The position numbers and the translations under genes were made by a program. DNA of 64,000 nucleotides from an uncultured Flavobacteriaceae bacterium (GTDB lineage: Bacteria > Bacteroidota > Bacteroidia > Flavobacteriales > Flavobacteriaceae): the NCBI GenBank assembly GCA_947487895.1, contig CANKYF010000007.1:12196-76195 (forward strand). The letters are read 5' to 3'. Shown here in pieces: positions 2,813 to 51,972 of this stretch. Under the pieces are notes generated by a model. It ran no database searches and had not been told where the DNA came from. It saw only the letters and a program-made list of their open reading frames with translations. Numbering within the stretch: position 1 is the stretch's first letter; each line of letters starts with the position of its first letter.

Positions 2813-2864
2813 TGTTTCAGCTGAACTGTTACACTGAGCTTGCCGAAGTGTTGTTTCAGCTTCA
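2813..2864. repeat. REP-like palindrome (gctgaac/ttgtttcagc) interrupted by a 24-nt second REP unit
   Basis: The uninterrupted core gaacttgtttc is at 37607-37617. The insert 2827-2850 matches the stand-alone unit at 41126-41154. Confidence 0.7.
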
Positions 2865-2947: not shown

Positions 2948-3730
2948 ATGAAAATCATATCATACAACGTAAATGGCATTAGAGCTGCATTAAACAAAGG
3001 ATTTATAGATTGGTTAACCGCAGCAGATCCTGATGTTATTTGTTTACAAGAAATTAAGGCACTTAAAGAACAATTAGATTTAAGTGTTTTTGAAGAAGCT
3101 GGTTATAACTATCATTATTGGTTTAGCGCGCAGAAAAAGGGTTACAGTGGTGTGGCTATTTTATGTAAAACTGAACCAAGTCATATAGAATACGGAACAG
3201 GTATAGAATCTATGGATTTTGAAGGTCGTAATCTTCGTGTAGATTTCCCTGCCCGTTCCGAAGGTGGGAATGGTGTTTCAATTATGAGTTTATATCTGCC
3301 ATCAGGTACAAACGATGCGCGTTTACAACATAAGCTAGATTATATGGATATGTTCCAAGAGTATATAAACAAGCTTAAAAAAGACGTTCCTAATCTTATT
3401 ATTTGTGGCGATTATAATATTTGTCATGAAGAGATAGATATTCATAATCCAAAAATGAAGGGAGTATCGGGGTTTTTACCAGAAGAAAGAGAATGGATTG
3501 GTAAATTTATAGATAGTGGTTTTATAGATTCATACCGTCATTTAAATCCTGAACAACAACAATTTAGCTGGTGGAGTTATAGAGCTAATGCTCGTGCTAA
3601 TAATAAAGGTTGGCGTTTAGATTATGCAATGGTTTCTAAGCCACTACAAGAAAATATAAAAAGAGCCGTTATACTCACTGAAGCAGTGCATAGTGATCAC
3701 TGCCCTATTTTAGTAGAAATAGATAAATAA
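2948..3730 (+). CDS. xth: Exodeoxyribonuclease III (AP endonuclease)
   Basis: Motifs SYNVNGIRA, LQEIK, CGDYNICH, WRLDY, SDHCP. Confidence 0.95.
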   Translation: MKIISYNVNGIRAALNKGFIDWLTAADPDVICLQEIKALKEQLDLSVFEEAGYNYHYWFSAQKKGYSGVAILCKTEPSHIEYGTGIESMDFEGRNLRVDFPARSEGGNGVSIMSLYLPSGTNDARLQHKLDYMDMFQEYINKLKKDVPNLIICGDYNICHEEIDIHNPKMKGVSGFLPEEREWIGKFIDSGFIDSYRHLNPEQQQFSWWSYRANARANNKGWRLDYAMVSKPLQENIKRAVILTEAVHSDHCPILVEIDK

Positions 3731-3761: not shown

Positions 3762-4721
3762 ATGATTAAGAGAATCTCAGTTTTAGCACTAACCTTTGTA
3801 GTTTTAGCATCATGTGTTTCGCCTAAAGTTTATAAAGAATTAGAAGCAAAATATAACAACTTAAAAAACGAAAACAGAAAACTCTCTGATGAAAATGATG
3901 CCCTTTTACAAGCTAAAAATGCAGCAAATAATGAATTGAAGCAACTACAAGCTGCCTATGATGAAGCAGTAGTAGAGAGAGATAAATTACAATCAGATTA
4001 TAATGCAACCAAATCTAACTATGATGCTTTGAAAGCATCATACGATGCGCTTGAAAAAAACAGTTCAGCAGCTATTGCTAAAAACTCACAAAAAAACAGA
4101 GAATTATTGGCGCAATTAGAGGCAAAAGAACAAGCTTTAGCAGCTGAAAATGCAAGATTAGCAAAACTTAAAAAAGAGTTAGAAGATCGTTCTAATAGAG
4201 TTGCAGAACTTGAAAAAGTTATTGCAGATAAAGATGCAGCAATGAGTGCGCTAAAAGATGCCATTTCAAGAGCTCTTACAGATTTTGAAGGTAAGGGATT
4301 AACTGTAGAGCAAAGAAATGGAAAAGTATATGTTTCTATGGAAAATAAATTGTTATTCAGCTCTGGTAGTTGGGCAGTTGGAACAGAAGGAAGAAGAGCA
4401 GTTCAGCAGTTAGGAGGGGTTCTTGCAGATAATCCAGACATAGCTGTTCTAATTGAAGGGCATACAGATAACGTGCCTTATAAGGGAAGTGGACAATTAA
4501 CAGGTAACTGGGATTTATCTACCAAACGAGCAACTGCTATTGTAAACATACTTAGAGAAAACAATAACATTCATCCAGAGAATTTAACAGCTGCTGGTCG
4601 TGGAGAGTTTGCTCCGGTAGCAACTAACGATTCTGCTACAGGAAAAGCAAAAAACAGACGTATAGAAGTAATTTTAACGCCTAAGTTAGATGAACTTTCT
4701 AGATTGTTAAATGATAATTAA
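3762..4721 (+). CDS. OmpA/MotB-family lipoprotein with a long coiled coil
   Basis: Lipobox LASC, heptad-rich middle, C-terminal IEGHTD...NWDLSTKRA...NRRIE. Confidence 0.9.
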   Translation: MIKRISVLALTFVVLASCVSPKVYKELEAKYNNLKNENRKLSDENDALLQAKNAANNELKQLQAAYDEAVVERDKLQSDYNATKSNYDALKASYDALEKNSSAAIAKNSQKNRELLAQLEAKEQALAAENARLAKLKKELEDRSNRVAELEKVIADKDAAMSALKDAISRALTDFEGKGLTVEQRNGKVYVSMENKLLFSSGSWAVGTEGRRAVQQLGGVLADNPDIAVLIEGHTDNVPYKGSGQLTGNWDLSTKRATAIVNILRENNNIHPENLTAAGRGEFAPVATNDSATGKAKNRRIEVILTPKLDELSRLLNDN

Positions 4722-4727
4722 CAGGTA

Positions 4728-4759
4728 TGTCATTGCGAGGAGGAACGACGCAACAATCT
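4728..4759. repeat. REP-like element (tgtcattgcgagg...caatct)
   Basis: Similar to the reverse complement of the element at 24290-24323. Confidence 0.75.
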
Positions 4760-29182: not shown

Positions 29183-29191
29183 CACAGATAA

Positions 29192-29280
29192 ACTTTAGGG
29201 GTGTTAATTTGTATAATAACAAGATTAACTGAGATTTACCCTTTGAACCTGATTAAGTTAGCACTTACGTAGGGAAAAGT
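29192..29280 (+). ncRNA. TPP riboswitch aptamer
   Basis: P1 acttt/aaagt, ggggtg, ctgaga, acccttt-gaacctgat, cgtaggga; upstream of thiS-thiC. Confidence 0.95.
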
Positions 29281-29368
29281 AAATTTATTAGAAATAATAA
29301 TAGGTTTTCAAAAAACCATACTTCTTCAACAAGGTATTCCTAAAGTTATCATTTAAGAGACTAATTTA

Positions 29369-29623: not shown

Positions 29624-31486
<1,863 letters not shown>

Positions 31487-31605: not shown

Positions 31606-32214
31606 ATGATTGTTCTAATAGCACCAGAAAACGATGTTCAAAATGAACTTGAAATACTTAATCAGTTGTTTCAAGAAGGGTTACAGTACTATCATTTAAG
31701 AAAACCAAATAAGAATTACGAAGAATATTGTGATTATCTAAATCTAATCGATTCAAAATATCATAATCTAATTGTAACGCACTATTTTCATGAGTTAATT
31801 GATGAATATTCATTAAAAGGAATTCATTTTCAAGAACAAAAACGAAGAGATTGTTTAGATACCCCTTCCGATTATTTTGTTAAGCTGAATAACATGTATG
31901 GCAAAACTATCAGTAGTTCTTTTCATGAACCAGAAGAATTAGAAAATTGTGATTTTGAATTTGATTATCATTTATTAAGTCCTGTATTTTCATCTATTTC
32001 AAAACAAGGATATCAAGGTCGTGGATTTGATGTTAACCATATAAATAAAAGAATAGTGGGTATGGGAGGTGTAACAACTGAAAATTTAAGTGAATTTACA
32101 AAGTTAGGTTTTAAAGGTGTTGGTGTTTTAGGAGGTGTTTGGAATAGTAAAAACCCTATTTCTGATTTTAAGTTAATGAGGAATTATTTTACTCAAACAA
32201 GAAGTTATATATAA
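31606..32214 (+). CDS. ThiE/TenI-like thiamine-phosphate-synthase-family protein
   Basis: HLRKP, GIHF, SSSFH, LLSPVFSSISKQGY, GMGGV. Confidence 0.85.
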   Translation: MIVLIAPENDVQNELEILNQLFQEGLQYYHLRKPNKNYEEYCDYLNLIDSKYHNLIVTHYFHELIDEYSLKGIHFQEQKRRDCLDTPSDYFVKLNNMYGKTISSSFHEPEELENCDFEFDYHLLSPVFSSISKQGYQGRGFDVNHINKRIVGMGGVTTENLSEFTKLGFKGVGVLGGVWNSKNPISDFKLMRNYFTQTRSYI

Positions 32215-32217
32215 AAT

Positions 32218-32266
32218 GGTCACTGAGGTTCTCGAAGTGACCGTGATTTCGAGAGCCTCAATCACC
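32218..32266. repeat. Inverted REP doublet (REPIN-like)
   Basis: ggtcactgaggttctcgaagtg and gatttcgagagcctcaatcacc, near reverse complements. Confidence 0.8.
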
Positions 32267-32276
32267 AAGCGATAGC

Positions 32277-33047
32277 ATGAAAGAACATAAATACATACTA
32301 ACCATAGCAGGTCATGACCCGTCAGGAGGAGCTGGCTTAACTTCGGATGTTAAAACATTTGAAGCGCATGGTTTCTATGGGCTTTCGGTATGTACCGCTA
32401 TTACTGTTCAAAATGATATCGATTTTAAAAGTTGTTTTTGGACTGAAGTCAATGTAATCATTTCTCAAATGGAGACCTTATTTGAACGTTTTGAAATTTC
32501 AGTAGTTAAAATTGGTATTGTAGAAAGTTGGAGTGTGTTATTGAAAATTTTAAATAAGCTACACGCTCTAAATTCAGACATTAAAATTATTGTAGATCCT
32601 ATAATAAAGGCAACAGCAGGTTTCGATTTTCATTCCACTGAAAACCAAGAATTATTTGACGTTATTTGGGATAAATGTTATCTCATTACACCTAATTATG
32701 AGGAGATTGAATTGCTGTATCCAGAAAAAGATATAGAGGAAACTATTGAGCATATTTCAGAAAAAACTAATATCTATTTAAAAGGCGGACATAGAACCGA
32801 TAAAAAAGGTTGGGATGTATTATATCATAATAGAATTGTTCAAACTAACATAGAACCAAGAGCAAGACAAGTTTTTGATAAACATGGCAGTGGTTGTGTT
32901 TTATCTTCTGCGCTTGCAAGTAACATTGCGTTAGAAATAGAATTAGAAGATGCTGCGAGAGAAGCAAAATATTATACCGAGCAATTTTTAAATTCAAATG
33001 AAACCTTGTTAGGTGTTCATCAATCAAATTTAAAGGAAAGCGTCTAA
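32277..33047 (+). CDS. thiD: Hydroxymethylpyrimidine/phosphomethylpyrimidine kinase
   Basis: LTIAGHDPSGGAG, VDPI, ITPN, LKGGH, KHGSGCVLSS. Confidence 0.93.
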   Translation: MKEHKYILTIAGHDPSGGAGLTSDVKTFEAHGFYGLSVCTAITVQNDIDFKSCFWTEVNVIISQMETLFERFEISVVKIGIVESWSVLLKILNKLHALNSDIKIIVDPIIKATAGFDFHSTENQELFDVIWDKCYLITPNYEEIELLYPEKDIEETIEHISEKTNIYLKGGHRTDKKGWDVLYHNRIVQTNIEPRARQVFDKHGSGCVLSSALASNIALEIELEDAAREAKYYTEQFLNSNETLLGVHQSNLKESV

Positions 33048-41125: not shown

Positions 41126-41154
41126 GTGTCTCACACTGAGCTTGTTGAAGTGTG
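41126..41154. repeat. Stand-alone REP unit tcacactgagcttgttgaagtgtg
   Basis: Same unit as the insert at 2827-2850. Confidence 0.75.
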
Positions 41155-48794: not shown

Positions 48795-48821
48795 GTCATT
48801 CCGAGCGAAGCGTGGGAATCT
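48795..48821. repeat. REP-like element gtcattccgagcgaagcgtgggaatct
   Basis: cgtc start; attcc/ggaat and cg-cgaag-cg arms. Confidence 0.75.
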
Positions 48822-48848: not shown

Positions 48849-48896
48849 AGATTGGCACAATCATCTCGATTACTATCGAGACTCATTCGCAATGAC
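48849..48896. repeat. REP-like partner (agattg...tcgcaatgaca) with an internal perfect hairpin
   Basis: Ends match 24290-24323; inner tctcgat-tact-atcgaga at 48864-48881. Confidence 0.6.
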
Positions 48897-48915
48897 AAAA
48901 GGAATTTACAAAAAA

Positions 48916-51900
48916 ATGAAATACAATTTCAACGAGATAGAAGCCAAATGGCAAAAATATTGGGCAGATAACCAAACGTTTAAAGCCGAAAACAATAGTG
49001 ATAAACCTAAGTATTACGTGTTAGATATGTTCCCTTACCCAAGTGGGGCAGGATTACATGTTGGGCATCCGTTGGGATATATAGCTTCAGATATTTATGC
49101 GCGCTACAAACGTCATAAAGGGTTTAATGTATTACATCCGCAAGGGTATGATTCTTTTGGCTTGCCTGCTGAGCAGTATGCTATTCAAACTGGTCAACAC
49201 CCTGCAATTACTACAAAAGAAAATATTGCAACCTATCGTCGTCAGTTAGATCAAATTGGTTTTTCGTTTGATTGGTCTCGTGAAGTACGCACATCAGATC
49301 CTAAATATTATAAATGGACGCAATGGGTATTTATTCAATTATTTGAATCTTGGTTTAACTACAATTCTAATAAAGCCGAAGACATTTCAGAATTAATAAA
49401 AATATTTGAAGCTGAAGGAAATATAAATGTGAATGCTGCTTGTGATGATGATATTGAGATATTTACTGCTGAAGACTGGAAAAGCTATTCTTCTGAAAGA
49501 CAACAAGAAATTTTATTACAATATAGATTAACATATTTAGCCGAAACTGAAGTAAACTGGTGTCCAGCTTTAGGAACTGTGTTAGCTAATGATGAAATAA
49601 TAAATGGCGTTTCTGAACGAGGAGGGCATCCTGTGGTTAGAAAGAAAATGACGCAGTGGAGTATGCGTATTTCGGCATATGCAGAACGTTTATTACAAGG
49701 ATTAGATACGGTTGATTGGACAGATTCTTTGAAAGAAAGTCAACGTAATTGGATTGGAAAATCTGTTGGGGCATCAGTAACTTTCAATGTGATTCCTAAT
49801 ACGGTGGCTGAGGCTCTCGAAGACAAAACAGGCAAGAGCACTTCGAGTGCCTCAGTGCCCAATTATAGCATAGAAGTATTCACAACCCGACCTGATACTA
49901 TTTTTGGGGTAAGTTTTATGACTTTAGCGCCAGAACACGATTTAGTGTCTAAAATTACAACATCAGAGCAAAAAGCAGAAGTTGAGGCCTATGTTGAAGC
50001 AACTTCTAAACGTAGTGAGCGTGATAGAATGGCAGATGTGAAAAGCATTTCGGGTGTGTTTACAGGGGCTTATGCAGAACATCCGTTTACCAAAGAGCCA
50101 GTTCAAATCTGGATTGGGGATTACGTATTAGCCAGCTACGGAACTGGAGCCGTTATGGCGGTACCATGTGGAGACCAACGTGATTGGGATTTTGCGAAGC
50201 ATTTTAATATTCCTATTCCTAATATTTTTGAAGGGGTAGATATTTCTGAAGGCGCTTTTGCAGATAAAGACAAAACCGTTATTTCGAACAGTGATTTCTT
50301 AAACGGATTGAACTATAAAAAAGCAACCAAACGCGCTATTTACGAATTAGAGCAAATTGGTCAAGGCGAAGGAAAAACTAATTACCGTCTACGTGACGCA
50401 GTATTTAGTCGTCAGCGTTATTGGGGAGAGCCGTTTCCTGTGTATTATGTGAATGGGATGCCACAAATGATTGATGCTGAACACTTGCCAATAGAACTGC
50501 CTGAAGTTGAAAAATATTTACCAACCGAAACGGGTGAGCCGCCATTAGGAAATGCAACTGTTTGGGCTTGGGATACCGAATCTAATTCAGTAGTTGCAAA
50601 TGAAAAAATTGATAATAAAACTGTTTTTCCTCTTGAGTTAAATACCATGCCAGGGTGGGCAGGAAGTTCGCAGTACTTTAATCGTTACATGGATCCTAAT
50701 AATGAGGATGCTATTTTCTCTAAAGAAGCCATTGATTATTGGCAACAGGTAGATTTGTACATAGGTGGTTCAGAACATGCAACAGGACACTTATTATACT
50801 CTCGTTTTTGGCAAAAGTTTATGTTTGATAAGGGTTATGTGAACCATGATGAATTTGCTAAAAAGCTGATTAACCAAGGGATGATTTTGGGGACTAGTGC
50901 TTTTGTGTTTAGATTGACTTTAATGTGGCAGGATACCATACACCATAAAGGGAGTAGAGAGTATTTGGAAGATTTAAGCAGTTCCTTTCCAACTATTTTA
51001 TGCTCCACTGATATTTATCAAAAATACTTTAGTGAAGAGTTATCTTTATTCGACCTAAATGAAAAATATGATTTACCAAAATTAGATTCTTTTATTAACA
51101 ACGTTGACACTAATGAGGTTGACTTGTATAAATTGTCTTTTGGTGAGAATATGATTCATGCAGATGTAGCTCTTGTAAACTTATCCAATGAATTGGATAT
51201 TGAAGCTTTCAAAAGTTGGAGGCCAGAATTTGCAGATGCAGATGTTATCTTAGAAGATAATGGAACATATAAGGTTTATCGAGACGTTGAAAAAATGTCC
51301 AAGTCTAAATACAACGTAGTAAACCCAGACAATATCTGTGAAGAATACGGAGCAGATAGTTTACGATTGTACGAAATGTTTTTAGGGCCATTAGAGCAAT
51401 ACAAACCTTGGAATACATCTGGTATTACAGGTGTTCATGGATTCTTAAAGAAACTTTGGAAATTGTATTTTGATGATAATGGGTTGAAAGTAACCGATGC
51501 AAAATCTACAAAAGACAACCTAAAAACACTTCATAAAACCATTAAAAAGGTACAAGAAGATATTGAGAATTTCTCATTTAATACGTCTGTGTCAACCTTT
51601 ATGATTGCAGTGAATGAACTTACGGCTCAAAAGTGTACATCAAAAGAGATACTTGAACCACTATTAATCTTAATATCACCTTATGCACCTCATATTGCAG
51701 AGGAATTATGGAATGCTTTAGAAAATTCAGAATCAATTTCTACTGCAGCATTTCCGGAGTTTGATGAAAGTCATTTGGTAGAGAGTAGTAAAAACTATCC
51801 TATTTCATTTAATGGGAAAATGCGTTTTACTATGGAGTTACCATTAGACATGAGTAAAGATGATATTGAAGCTGCGGTTATGGCACACGAAAAAACGCAA

Positions 51901-51972
51901 GACCAATTAAAAGGGCGTACCCCTAAAAAGGTGATTGTAGTACCTGGTAAGATTGTGAATGTTGTAGGTTAG
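48916..51972 (+). CDS. leuS: Leucine--tRNA ligase (start moved to ATG 48916; the track's ATG lies in a REP)
   Basis: MFPYPSGAGLHVGH, FTTRPDT, SRQRYWG, YIGGSEHA, KMSKSK. Confidence 0.98.
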   Translation: MKYNFNEIEAKWQKYWADNQTFKAENNSDKPKYYVLDMFPYPSGAGLHVGHPLGYIASDIYARYKRHKGFNVLHPQGYDSFGLPAEQYAIQTGQHPAITTKENIATYRRQLDQIGFSFDWSREVRTSDPKYYKWTQWVFIQLFESWFNYNSNKAEDISELIKIFEAEGNINVNAACDDDIEIFTAEDWKSYSSERQQEILLQYRLTYLAETEVNWCPALGTVLANDEIINGVSERGGHPVVRKKMTQWSMRISAYAERLLQGLDTVDWTDSLKESQRNWIGKSVGASVTFNVIPNTVAEALEDKTGKSTSSASVPNYSIEVFTTRPDTIFGVSFMTLAPEHDLVSKITTSEQKAEVEAYVEATSKRSERDRMADVKSISGVFTGAYAEHPFTKEPVQIWIGDYVLASYGTGAVMAVPCGDQRDWDFAKHFNIPIPNIFEGVDISEGAFADKDKTVISNSDFLNGLNYKKATKRAIYELEQIGQGEGKTNYRLRDAVFSRQRYWGEPFPVYYVNGMPQMIDAEHLPIELPEVEKYLPTETGEPPLGNATVWAWDTESNSVVANEKIDNKTVFPLELNTMPGWAGSSQYFNRYMDPNNEDAIFSKEAIDYWQQVDLYIGGSEHATGHLLYSRFWQKFMFDKGYVNHDEFAKKLINQGMILGTSAFVFRLTLMWQDTIHHKGSREYLEDLSSSFPTILCSTDIYQKYFSEELSLFDLNEKYDLPKLDSFINNVDTNEVDLYKLSFGENMIHADVALVNLSNELDIEAFKSWRPEFADADVILEDNGTYKVYRDVEKMSKSKYNVVNPDNICEEYGADSLRLYEMFLGPLEQYKPWNTSGITGVHGFLKKLWKLYFDDNGLKVTDAKSTKDNLKTLHKTIKKVQEDIENFSFNTSVSTFMIAVNELTAQKCTSKEILEPLLILISPYAPHIAEELWNALENSESISTAAFPEFDESHLVESSKNYPISFNGKMRFTMELPLDMSKDDIEAAVMAHEKTQDQLKGRTPKKVIVVPGKIVNVVG
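49803..49859. repeat. Inverted REP doublet inside the leuS reading frame
   Basis: ggtggctgaggctctcgaag (49803-49822) and cacttcgagtgcctcagtgcc (49839-49859); same family as intergenic 32218-32266. Confidence 0.85.

What the first reader, a model, noticed from the sequence alone, without database searches (positions are those of the whole stretch)
49788..49865. REP doublet translated in-frame inside essential leucyl-tRNA synthetase
Between WIGKSVGASVTF and IEVFTTRPDT, at the start of the CP1 editing domain where LeuS normally has a short loop, the protein reads NVIPNTVAEALEDKTGKSTSSASVPNYS. The DNA contains two inverted copies of the REP found intergenically at 32218-32266. It is preceded by tgtgattcc, which resembles the tgtcattcc start of another REP family (48795), suggesting successive insertions at one site. 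A non-coding palindrome has thus become peptide sequence in an essential enzyme without breaking frame, as described for Rickettsia palindromic elements. With the xth case, this suggests REP traffic is a source of protein loops here.
Basis: partly seen in the sequence, partly recalled or inferred. Interest (0 to 1): 0.75.

Follow-up and report, generated by a model that had tools for sequence, protein, structure and literature searches.

The report
Mobile hairpin repeat translated inside LeuS
A short palindromic repeat that normally lies between genes has landed in frame in a surface hairpin of the essential leucyl-tRNA synthetase of a marine flavobacterium and is read as about 20 extra amino acids; mobile DNA has struck this same spot repeatedly in related bacteria.

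Summary
Window 49803-49860, inside leuS (48892-51972, +), carries two inverted copies of a 13-nt core (TGAGGCTCTCGAA / TTCGAGTGCCTCA). The only other copies in the window form the intergenic element at 32218-32265 (4 arm matches against 0.39 expected).

The insertion adds 20 residues at the tip of the beta-hairpin that leads into the CP1 editing domain. There, T. thermophilus LeuRS and 58 of 120 flavobacterial homologues have a 6-residue turn.

The repeat belongs to a family found mainly in Bacteroidota. Each unit is a small hairpin with a covarying stem and an invariant loop (82% of cells paired against 49.5% in shuffles). Most copies are intergenic. In-frame copies also sit in PurL, Mfd and a second LeuS site.

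The other 62 LeuS homologues carry at least five repeat-derived peptide types, combinations of them, or a DUF559 nuclease domain at this codon. More distant LeuRS carry Nudix, serine-hydrolase, ASCH, PBECR3 or RAYT-like transposase domains there.

The kind is known; the family, its loop-conserved architecture and the hotspot appear undescribed in the papers I could search. How the repeat moves is unknown. Translation of the loop is inferred, not shown.

The parts
48892..51972 (+). leuS, leucyl-tRNA synthetase, 1026 aa, intact ORF with HIGH, KMSKS and TTRPDT motifs
49789..49800 (+). GTG ATT CCT AAT (V-I-P-N): remnant of an older GTCATTCC-type hairpin unit. Alleles that carry other units downstream share this prefix.
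49803..49827 (+). Unit 1 of the doublet: 5' stem GGTGGC, 13-nt core TGAGGCTCTCGAA (49809-49821, read as AEALE), and a decayed 3' stem GACAAA (GCCACA in L001)
49828..49835 (+). Middle of the spacer between the two units. The spacer is homologous in L001, L002 and L003 and differs from them mostly at third codon positions.
49836..49860 (-). Unit 2 (mirror unit): stem GAGCAC, core TTCGAGTGCCTCA (49842-49854, read as TSSAS), stem GTGCCC
49861..49869 (+). AAT TAT AGC (N-Y-S): probable remainder of the ancestral turn (compare D-Y-D and N-H-E in empty alleles). This is an inference.
32218..32265 (.). Intergenic doublet of the same family. It lies in the 62-nt gap between ORFs 31606-32214 and 32277-33047. 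Build: GGTCAC-TGAGGTTCTCGAA-GTGACC followed by GTGAT-TTCGAGAGCCTCA-ATCAC.
48795..48820 (+). Single hairpin unit of a sister type, GTCATTCC-GAGCGAAGCGTG-GGAATC, in the leader upstream of leuS
3243..3270 (+). Hairpin TTCCC...GGGAA inside xth (ORF 2948-3730). It codes a 7-residue insertion (PARSEGG) that is absent from solved Xth 5J8N.
2831..2851 (+). Intergenic single unit acacTGAGCTTGCCGAAgtgt
4729..4755 (+). Intergenic single unit GTCATTGC-GAGGAGGAACGAC-GCAA
24285..24318 (-). Intergenic unit on the minus strand: ATTGC-GAGGAGCTTGCGACGTG-GCAAT
41132..41154 (+). Intergenic single unit cacacTGAGCTTGTTGAAgtgtg

Best explanation
The segment is a REP/REPIN-like mobile palindromic element that inserted into leuS and is now read as protein.

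The element is a doublet of two inverted hairpin units. Each unit has a 4-6 bp stem of free sequence and an invariant 13-nt loop, TGAGG(C/T)NCTCGAA. In this genome and across Bacteroidota the family is mostly intergenic.

One copy inserted at the tip of the beta-hairpin that links the LeuRS catalytic core to the CP1 editing domain. It landed next to the stump of an earlier GTCATTCC-type unit. Its length is a multiple of three, and the frame in use (AEALE ... TSSASV) has no stop codon. The gene therefore stayed open, with a net gain of 20 residues.

The insertion persists because this hairpin tip tolerates extra sequence. In other bacteria the same tip carries insertions of up to 276 residues, including whole domains.

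Shown here:
- The sequence identity of the cores and the family and its hairpin structure.
- The insertion relative to empty alleles.
- The hotspot.
- The shared origin of the window-clade and Hyunsoonleella rubra copies.
- Nucleotide-level conservation of the cores.

Inferred:
- The loop is translated and harmless.
- The element moves as a single-stranded hairpin handled by a loop-reading enzyme that has not been identified.
- Structural tolerance, rather than sequence targeting, is the main reason for the hotspot.
For: **Same family as the intergenic copy.** There are 4 arm matches against 0.39 expected.

**Wide distribution.** Most are Bacteroidota, with some Chloroflexi, Actinobacteria, Treponema and CPR bacteria.

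**Hairpin units.**
- Bases next to the core pair locally at 93/95/89/77/70% against 62/31/33/44/38% in controls.
- The same bases pair across the doublet at only 63/18/45%.
- On 148 distinct units, 82.4% of cells pair against 49.5% in shuffles (0 of 500 reach it). Slid controls give 29-48%. All 6 pairs show compensatory changes.

**Mostly extragenic.**
- About 4 of 122 doublets are in real genes.
- 6 of 8 units in the window lie outside the ORFs that cover 84% of it (p = 0.0003).

**Insertion relative to empty alleles.** Seonamhaeicola marinus LeuS is 89% identical and reads NV-NNHEET-IE (L126). 58 of 120 homologues are of this basal form.

**Hotspot and turnover.**
- At least five repeat-derived peptide types and their combinations occur at this codon. 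Four Hyunsoonleella species show four different states.
- DNA of six alleles shows the hairpin units.
- Pontimicrobium carries the same family with different stems and spacer, which points to a separate insertion.

**Permissive site.** DUF559, Nudix, Ser_hydrolase, PBECR3, ASCH and RAYT-like domains are inserted at the same tip in other LeuRS.

**Single origin with H. rubra, and core constraint.**
- The spacers are visibly homologous between the two lineages; most differences fall at third codon positions.
- The cores differ at 1 of 26 positions, the rest of the insert at 20 of 55 (Fisher p = 0.002).
- 9 of 10 third codon positions in the cores are identical, against 37% gene-wide at four-fold sites (p = 0.0009).
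Against: - No transposase or other mobilising gene was found. There is no RAYT homologue in the window or in about 1 Mb of related loci.
- No polymorphic insertion (present in some genomes, absent in others of the same species) was seen, so mobility is inferred from distribution only.
- Copy number per genome could not be measured, because the scan was truncated.
- Translation of the loop is not shown. No RNA runs exist for this organism.
- The structure model was too poor to place the loop (mean pLDDT 51).
- Local stems have partly decayed in the window (unit 1 pairs at 3 of 6) and in L002. Whatever keeps the cores conserved does not keep every stem.
- The classical REP 5' GTAG or CGTC tag is absent (by inspection).
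Confidence: 0.85

Rival explanations
1. The hotspot reflects targeting rather than tolerance alone. New hairpin units insert preferentially into or beside existing units (repeat attracts repeat), or a site-specific nuclease such as the DUF559 domain found at this codon cuts here and repair copies in repeat DNA.
For: - Units are clustered. Alleles hold 2-3 adjacent units of different types.
- In Mfd of H. flava a GTCATTC-type unit abuts the doublet.
- The shared V-I-P-N stump precedes different units.
- The same family was inserted at least twice at this site in the same frame.
- PurL of two distant Bacteroidota was hit at one site.
- A nuclease cassette with inverted terminal hairpins sits at the same codon (L121). 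So does a RAYT-like transposase flanked by repeat-coded peptides (P0326).
Against: - Unrelated cargo (Nudix, serine hydrolase, ASCH) occupies the same tip in distant lineages. That is most simply explained by structural tolerance.
- The empty site (AAT GTG AAT AAT CAT GAA) shows no hairpin or core-like target.
- DUF559 genes are not found near doublets in about 1 Mb of loci.
- The two explanations are not exclusive.
Confidence: 0.35
2. The element has been co-opted. The conserved cores are kept because the DNA or mRNA hairpin, or the peptide, now does something for leuS, such as translational pausing before CP1 folds, mRNA stability, or binding of a repeat-recognising protein.
For: - The cores are far more conserved than the rest of the insert and than synonymous sites of the gene.
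- There is a compensatory double change in the unit 2 stem between L001 (GGGCAC/GTGCCC) and L003 (GGACAC/GTGTCC), at the cost of two amino-acid changes.
Against: - Stems are decaying in the window and in L002.
- Close relatives do without any insertion (L126) or carry unrelated units, so no conserved function is attached to the site.
- Core conservation could equally come from gene conversion by the many genomic copies.
Confidence: 0.15
3. The loop is an old lineage-specific LeuS feature, and its likeness to the intergenic repeat is chance.
For: The loop is kept across LeuS proteins that are only about 80% identical (window clade and H. rubra).
Against: - The arm match is significant.
- Identical 13-nt cores with the family's local stems are present.
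- Closer relatives have the empty site.
- Many other repeat types occupy the same codon.
Confidence: 0.02
4. The segment is removed before the mature enzyme forms, by an intron-like, bypassing or intein-like route, so it never becomes peptide.
For: None directly. It is a stable hairpin and no RNA data exist.
Against: - There is no stop codon in the insert, and its length is a multiple of three.
- The spacer differs mainly at third codon positions between L001 and L003, as expected for translated sequence.
- No Rfam intron or other RNA family matches.
- The segment is 78 nt with no intein motifs.
Confidence: 0.03

Closest known systems
Rickettsia palindromic elements (RPE; Ogata et al. 2000, recalled from memory; cited in PMC3733652)
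   Same: Palindromic repeats that also occur between genes are inserted in frame into essential genes. They are translated as extra surface peptide without killing the protein.
   Different: - RPEs are about 100-150 bp elements of Rickettsia. This element is a 58-nt doublet of 25-nt hairpin units in Bacteroidota.
- No sequence relation was tested.
- Here the loop is conserved and the stem is free.
- Here one codon is hit repeatedly by several repeat types.
REP / BIME / REPIN elements mobilised by RAYT tyrosine transposases (E. coli, Pseudomonas; PMC3733652, which also lists REPs inside tRNA synthetase genes of Xanthomonas oryzae, E. litoralis and S. alaskensis)
   Same: - Short GC-rich hairpin units, mostly extragenic.
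- Units are often paired in inverted orientation so that the pair can form a longer hairpin.
- Occasional in-frame copies occur inside genes, aminoacyl-tRNA synthetases included.
   Different: - There is no 5' GTAG or CGTC tag. Units begin GTCA or GGT.
- The conserved part is the 13-nt loop, not the stem. The same loop is shared by many genera and even phyla, whereas classical REPs are species-specific.
- No RAYT was found nearby.
MITEs found within genes (Correia/NEMIS, ERIC, RU-1/2/3, Coxiella MITEs; PMC2759123, PMC5896051)
   Same: Small non-autonomous repeats that can add peptide segments to host proteins.
   Different: MITEs are 70-300 bp with terminal inverted repeats of a parent IS and target-site duplications. 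No such parent IS or duplication is seen here.
Homing-endonuclease and intein insertions in conserved enzymes
   Same: Conserved essential genes are hit repeatedly at one site. A nuclease domain (DUF559) sits at the same codon in some alleles.
   Different: There is no splicing domain, so the insertion stays in the protein. The repeat doublet encodes no enzyme.

Membership tests
REP/REPIN (RAYT-associated repetitive extragenic palindromes) | Short (20-40 nt) imperfect palindrome able to form a hairpin | tested here: met
   Each 25-nt unit forms a 4-6 bp stem plus a 13-nt loop. 82.4% of cells pair against 49.5% in shuffles.
REP/REPIN (RAYT-associated repetitive extragenic palindromes) | Many copies, predominantly between genes | tested here: inconclusive
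   The extragenic bias is met: about 118 of 122 doublets and 6 of 8 window units lie outside genes. Copy number per genome could not be measured.
REP/REPIN (RAYT-associated repetitive extragenic palindromes) | Inverted doublets that can fold into a long hairpin | tested here: met
   132 neighbouring pairs are convergent against 25 in other arrangements, although the search pattern favoured convergent pairs. The outer GTCA/TGAC bases pair across the doublet at 68-88%.
REP/REPIN (RAYT-associated repetitive extragenic palindromes) | Conserved GTAG (or CGTC) tetranucleotide at one end | tested here: not met
   By inspection, the flank consensus is tGTCA... or cGGT...; GTAG and CGTC are not conserved there.
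REP/REPIN (RAYT-associated repetitive extragenic palindromes) | A cognate RAYT (Y1 transposase) gene flanked by the repeats in the same genome | not testable with these tools
   Only 64 kb of the genome is available. tblastn with a RAYT-like sequence found nothing in the window or in about 1 Mb of loci.
Rickettsia palindromic elements (RPE) | In-frame insertion of a repeat, also found intergenically, into functional protein genes | tested here: met
   In-frame copies are in LeuS (two sites), PurL, Mfd and Xth.
Rickettsia palindromic elements (RPE) | Sequence membership in RPE-1 to RPE-8 of Rickettsia | not tested
   No RPE consensus was at hand. The host is a flavobacterium and the element is much shorter, so membership is not claimed.
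Rickettsia palindromic elements (RPE) | Insertion on the protein surface, away from catalytic sites | tested here: inconclusive
   Sequence alignment to 1H3N places the insertion at a hairpin turn four residues before the TTRPDT editing motif. The AlphaFold model was too poor to judge exposure. Tolerance of whole domains at this tip in other LeuRS supports surface exposure.
Rfam structured RNA families | Match to a curated covariance model | tested here: not met
   The only hit in the window is a TPP riboswitch elsewhere. Five repeat-bearing loci gave only sub-threshold generic hairpin hits.

The most novel reading that the evidence does not exclude
Two linked claims that the data do not exclude.

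1. Bacteroidota, and some other phyla, share a hairpin repeat whose loop is invariant across phyla while its stem is free. That pattern suggests an undescribed enzyme that reads the loop of a single-stranded hairpin and moves or maintains these units.

2. The beta-hairpin tip at the entrance of the LeuRS editing domain is a landing pad used across bacteria. It takes repeat units, a RAYT transposase with its repeats, DUF559 and PBECR3 nucleases, and then whole accessory enzymes (Nudix, serine hydrolase, ASCH). Under this reading, mobile DNA repeatedly builds new LeuRS architectures at one codon.
Probability: 0.35. Interest if true: 0.8.

Novelty: new variant of a known kind. Interest (0 to 1): 0.62.

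Why it matters
In-frame palindromic repeats are the clearest case of selfish DNA becoming protein sequence. They have mainly been discussed for Rickettsia and a few Proteobacteria.

This case extends the phenomenon to free-living marine Flavobacteriaceae and to Bacteroidota more broadly. It also offers a natural series in which one codon of an essential enzyme carries an empty turn, one, two or three repeat units, or a whole nuclease domain.

That series makes two long-standing questions directly testable:
- How new protein loops and domain insertions arise.
- Whether repeats choose their sites or are merely filtered by selection.

There is a practical point as well. Length variation of LeuS (937 to more than 1150 residues) in this family is largely mobile-element debris, which affects annotation, alignment and phylogeny based on this marker gene.

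Tried and rejected
- **Structure prediction.** The model of full-length LeuS from 41 homologues had mean pLDDT 51 and below 50 around the loop. It was unusable and was not taken to fold search.
- **RNA evidence for translation or removal.** Only three marine metagenome DNA runs hold related sequence. There are no RNA runs.
- **Rfam.** No family fits the element.
- **A link between the doublets and DUF559 nuclease genes.** Only one DUF559 gene lies in about 1 Mb around 120 doublets, so the link is not supported.
- **A RAYT in the window or loci.** None was found.
- **Local recombination as the reason the window clade and H. rubra share the insertion.** Sliding identity shows no raised block around the site.
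- **Literature.**
  - Five topic searches found general REP and MITE work, including REPs inside tRNA synthetase genes (PMC3733652).
  - None described this family or this LeuS site.
  - A search for the core sequences as text returned only unrelated primer matches, and none at all for TGAGGCTCTCGAA.
  - The library lacks most subscription papers, so absence there is weak evidence.
- **P0011.** One sister allele could not be fetched as DNA.
Full report
**What is at the coordinates**

The window is 31% G+C. It comes from a member of the Flavobacteriaceae: the best named LeuS relatives are Aquaticitalea, Aestuariibaculum, Seonamhaeicola and Hyunsoonleella at 78-84% identity.

leuS is one intact ORF, 48892-51972 on the + strand, 1026 residues.

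The DNA holds an inverted repeat: CTGAGGCTCTCGAAG (49808-49822) and CTTCGAGTGCCTCAG (49841-49855). The arms have one mismatch and are 18 nt apart. Allowing three mismatches, this arm occurs four times in the window. Two are here and two are in the intergenic element at 32223-32261. Shuffled sequence gives 0.39 on average and never reaches four.

There are two small corrections. The intergenic element is itself a pair of inverted units, so the leuS element is one doublet of the same build. The element at 48795 is preceded by 'ccgtcattcc', not 'tgtcattcc'.

**What the repeat is**

I scanned one genome per bacterial species for TGAGGNNCTCGAA-N(3-30)-TTCGAGNNCCTCA. Most hits are Bacteroidota: Mucilaginibacter, Cytophagales, Cyclobacteriaceae, Chryseobacterium, Winogradskyella, Hyunsoonleella and Aquimarina. 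Some are Chloroflexi, Actinobacteria, Treponema and CPR bacteria.

Read side by side, the copies show an unexpected anatomy. The 13-nt core is not the stem of the unit. It is the loop of a small hairpin whose stem differs from copy to copy, for example CATGC/GCATG, CACCC/GGGTG and GGTGGC/GCCACC.

- The five bases next to the core pair locally at 93, 95, 89, 77 and 70%. Partner-shuffled controls give 62, 31, 33, 44 and 38%.
- The first three of those positions pair across the doublet at only 63, 18 and 45%.
- On 148 distinct units, 82.4% of cells form standard pairs against 49.5% in shuffles (0 of 500 reach it). Slid controls give 29-48%. All six pairs carry compensatory changes.
- Further out, GTCA and TGAC pair across the doublet.
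- Single units with the same build also occur (25 in the loci).

The other repeat types in the window and at the leuS site follow the same scheme: GTCA, a stem, GAG...CGAA, and the matching stem. Examples are GTCATTCC-GAGCGAAGCGTG-GGAATC at 48795 and GTCATTGC-GAGTGAAACGAA-GCAATC in L125.

No Rfam family matches.

The elements are mostly extragenic. Only about 4 of 122 doublets lie in real genes. Six of the eight units in the window lie outside the ORFs that cover 84% of it (p = 0.0003).

**Why it is an insertion**

T. thermophilus LeuRS (1H3N) reads FPV-EGKEV-RIPVFTTRPDT at this place. This is the first beta-hairpin of the editing (CP1) domain, four residues before the threonine-rich editing motif. 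The domain boundary is from my knowledge of that structure.

Among 120 close homologues, 58 have the same short turn, such as KDYDAK or NNHEET. Seonamhaeicola marinus LeuS is 89% identical to the window protein and has the empty site AAT GTG AAT AAT CAT GAA GAG ACT ATT GAG (L126).

The window allele has 26 residues where the basal form has 6. That is a gain of 60 nt.

**A hotspot with turnover**

The other 62 homologues carry recurrent peptides at this codon:
- IASE(T/A)KQS
- IPTERSDEES
- (V/T)(T/S)(L/S)SAVE
- H(S/A)E(L/I)VE
- AEALE...TS(S/R)(A/T)SV
- Combinations of two or three of these
- In two cases, a 150-residue DUF559 nuclease domain

DNA of representative alleles shows that each peptide is a hairpin unit of the scheme above.

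The states are scattered on a LeuS tree, and four Hyunsoonleella species have four different states.

The prefix GTN ATT CCT AAT (V-I-P-N) of the window allele recurs in L123 in front of a different unit. It is also the start of the complete unit VIPTERSDEESH in P0106.

**History of this copy**

The doublet is present in five related assemblies (P0001-P0005). It is also in H. rubra (L003) and in Pontimicrobium aquaticum (L124).

The window-clade and H. rubra copies share a homologous spacer and homologous flanks, and most spacer differences are at third codon positions. They therefore descend from one insertion. The variation pattern fits translated sequence.

The Pontimicrobium copy has different stems and a different spacer, so it is probably a separate insertion. 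That gene also carries a second doublet at another site (L124 10885-10933 and 11731-11776).

Between the window and H. rubra:
- Four-fold third positions of leuS are only 37% identical.
- The two cores differ at 1 of 26 positions. The rest of the insert differs at 20 of 55 (Fisher p = 0.002).
- 9 of 10 third positions in the cores are identical (p = 0.0009).

Something acts on the cores at the nucleotide level. It could be gene conversion from other copies, a protein that recognises them, or structure. I cannot tell which.

The local stems tell a mixed story. L001 and L003 keep 6-bp stems and differ by a compensatory pair (GGGCAC/GTGCCC against GGACAC/GTGTCC). In contrast, unit 1 of the window allele has decayed to 3 of 6 pairs.

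**Why here**

A search of 1.8 billion representative proteins with the 300 residues around the site shows that the tip is permissive well beyond this family. In that search:
- 69 of 113 representatives have 13-19 residues between the flanking motifs. Others have up to 276.
- Pfam places whole domains exactly there: DUF559 (four more clusters), NUDIX, Ser_hydrolase (three scanned here, two more by eye), a PBECR3 nuclease and ASCH.
- One insert's only PDB match is the E. coli REP-associated transposase TnpA-REP (4ER8, E = 4e-6). It is flanked by repeat-like peptides.

Because unrelated cargo uses the same tip, I rate structural tolerance as the main cause of the hotspot.

Clustering of units, and the presence of nucleases and a transposase at the site, keep a targeting component plausible (rival 1). 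The DUF559 cassette in L121 is bounded by its own inverted hairpins. These are unrelated to the doublet. DUF559 genes are not enriched near doublets.

**The wider claim that repeats make protein loops**

- In the window, xth (2948-3730) has a 7-residue insertion, PARSEGG, coded by a TTCCC...GGGAA hairpin. It is absent from solved Xth.
It is an insertion relative to solved PurL.
- In Mfd of Hyunsoonleella flava it lies beside a second unit.
- A second LeuS site (after VVSNDL, window residue about 571) carries repeat peptides in 10 of 120 homologues.
- All genic first units use the EALE frame. One of the three frames contains TGA.

**Comparison with known systems**

In-frame palindromic repeats are known from Rickettsia (RPE). 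They are also known from REPs of several Proteobacteria, including copies inside tRNA synthetase genes (PMC3733652).

This case works like those. It is not a member of the classical REP families:
- The GTAG or CGTC tag is absent.
- The conserved part is the loop, not the stem.
- The same loop is shared across genera and phyla.
- No RAYT was found.

The papers I could search contain no description of this family or of the LeuS hotspot. That library is incomplete.

**Limits**

- Translation of the loop, its harmlessness and the way the element moves are inferred.
- The structure model failed, and no RNA data exist.
- Copy number per genome is unknown.

**Verdict**

It is a new variant of a known kind. 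It comes with an unusually rich comparative series and two side observations, the loop-conserved hairpin family and the LeuRS landing pad, that deserve follow-up.

Noticed in passing
Proteins P0244, P0243, P0311, P0341, P0344, P0370, P0317, P0385, P0354, P0367, P0252, P0389 (LeuRS of other bacteria); equivalent to window 49789-49869: Whole domains are inserted at exactly this LeuRS hairpin tip in other lineages: DUF559 nuclease, NUDIX, alpha/beta serine hydrolase, PBECR3 nuclease and ASCH. The inserts run from 120 to 210 residues. P0370 has a second NUDIX domain further on.
   Followed up: partly
Protein P0326 (1192 aa), residues about 300-566: This LeuRS has a 276-residue insert at the same site. 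The insert's only PDB match is the E. coli REP-associated tyrosine transposase TnpA-REP (4ER8, E = 4e-6; Pfam Y1_Tnp just below its cut-off). It is flanked by repeat-like peptides PTRSVGVPGPTRSVGVP and GTQRQGAQRQGTRRWGTQ. It looks like a transposase with its repeats sitting inside leuS.
   Followed up: partly
L121 6826-7329 (leuS of a metagenome flavobacterium, P0028; also P0035): A DUF559 (Vsr-like) nuclease domain lies in frame at the same codon. It is bounded by inverted hairpins, TCCCCATCCTATCCTTCCCCAAAGGGGAAG ... CCCCCTTTGGGGGCTTGGGGGA. The two carriers are about 75-80% identical in the domain, so it is under selection. Relatives are mostly free-standing proteins of 120-160 residues. Some are embedded with RNase H, N6-methylase or LeuS editing domains, or are labelled MetH.
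   Followed up: partly
L124 11731-11776; LeuS alignment at window residue about 571-577 (window about 50600-50625): There is a second repeat hotspot in flavobacterial LeuS, after VVSNDL. 10 of 120 homologues carry CRAEPVEASQ, VTLSAVEGSQD, VIPTERGTRDEESH or a full AEALE...TSRTSV doublet. Pontimicrobium aquaticum has doublets at both sites.
   Followed up: partly
L064 about 4497-4538 and 4269; L100 1951-1990; L019 844-892: The same doublet family is in frame in PurL of two Bacteroidota at one site (LTFEH-[insert]-LGYDKVIM). Taibaiella PurL has a further single unit upstream. In Mfd of Hyunsoonleella flava the doublet lies next to a CHSERSEES unit.
   Followed up: partly
window 3243-3270 in xth (2948-3730): A 7-residue insertion, PARSEGG, relative to solved Xth 5J8N is coded by a GC-rich hairpin TTCCC...GGGAA. 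Its ends resemble the GTCATTCC...GGAATC unit at 48795.
   Followed up: partly
L012, L020, L027, L029, L036-L040, L042, L044, L053, L057 and others (Mucilaginibacter and other Sphingobacteriales): In Sphingobacteriales the doublet is a longer element of about 75 nt. It has a conserved spacer, GYGGGYAAAGGCCYYTRCSC, and outer GTGTCA/TGACAC ends. This is a family-specific, MITE-like version of the same cores.
   Followed up: no
L098 5508-7537; L046 498-5005; L089 1091-2400: Several units or doublets recur with identical flanks at spacings of 100-1500 nt. In these genomes they appear to be parts of larger tandem or dispersed repeats.
   Followed up: no
window 50900-51160 (LeuS residues about 672-755): This LeuS region is hypervariable among homologues, from 17 to more than 60 residues in the first stretch alone. 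It accounts for most of the 937-1036 residue length range. No hairpin units were seen there in the window copy.
   Followed up: no
window 29187-29292 (+): A TPP riboswitch (RF00059, 72 bits) lies upstream of ORF 29627-31486.
   Followed up: no
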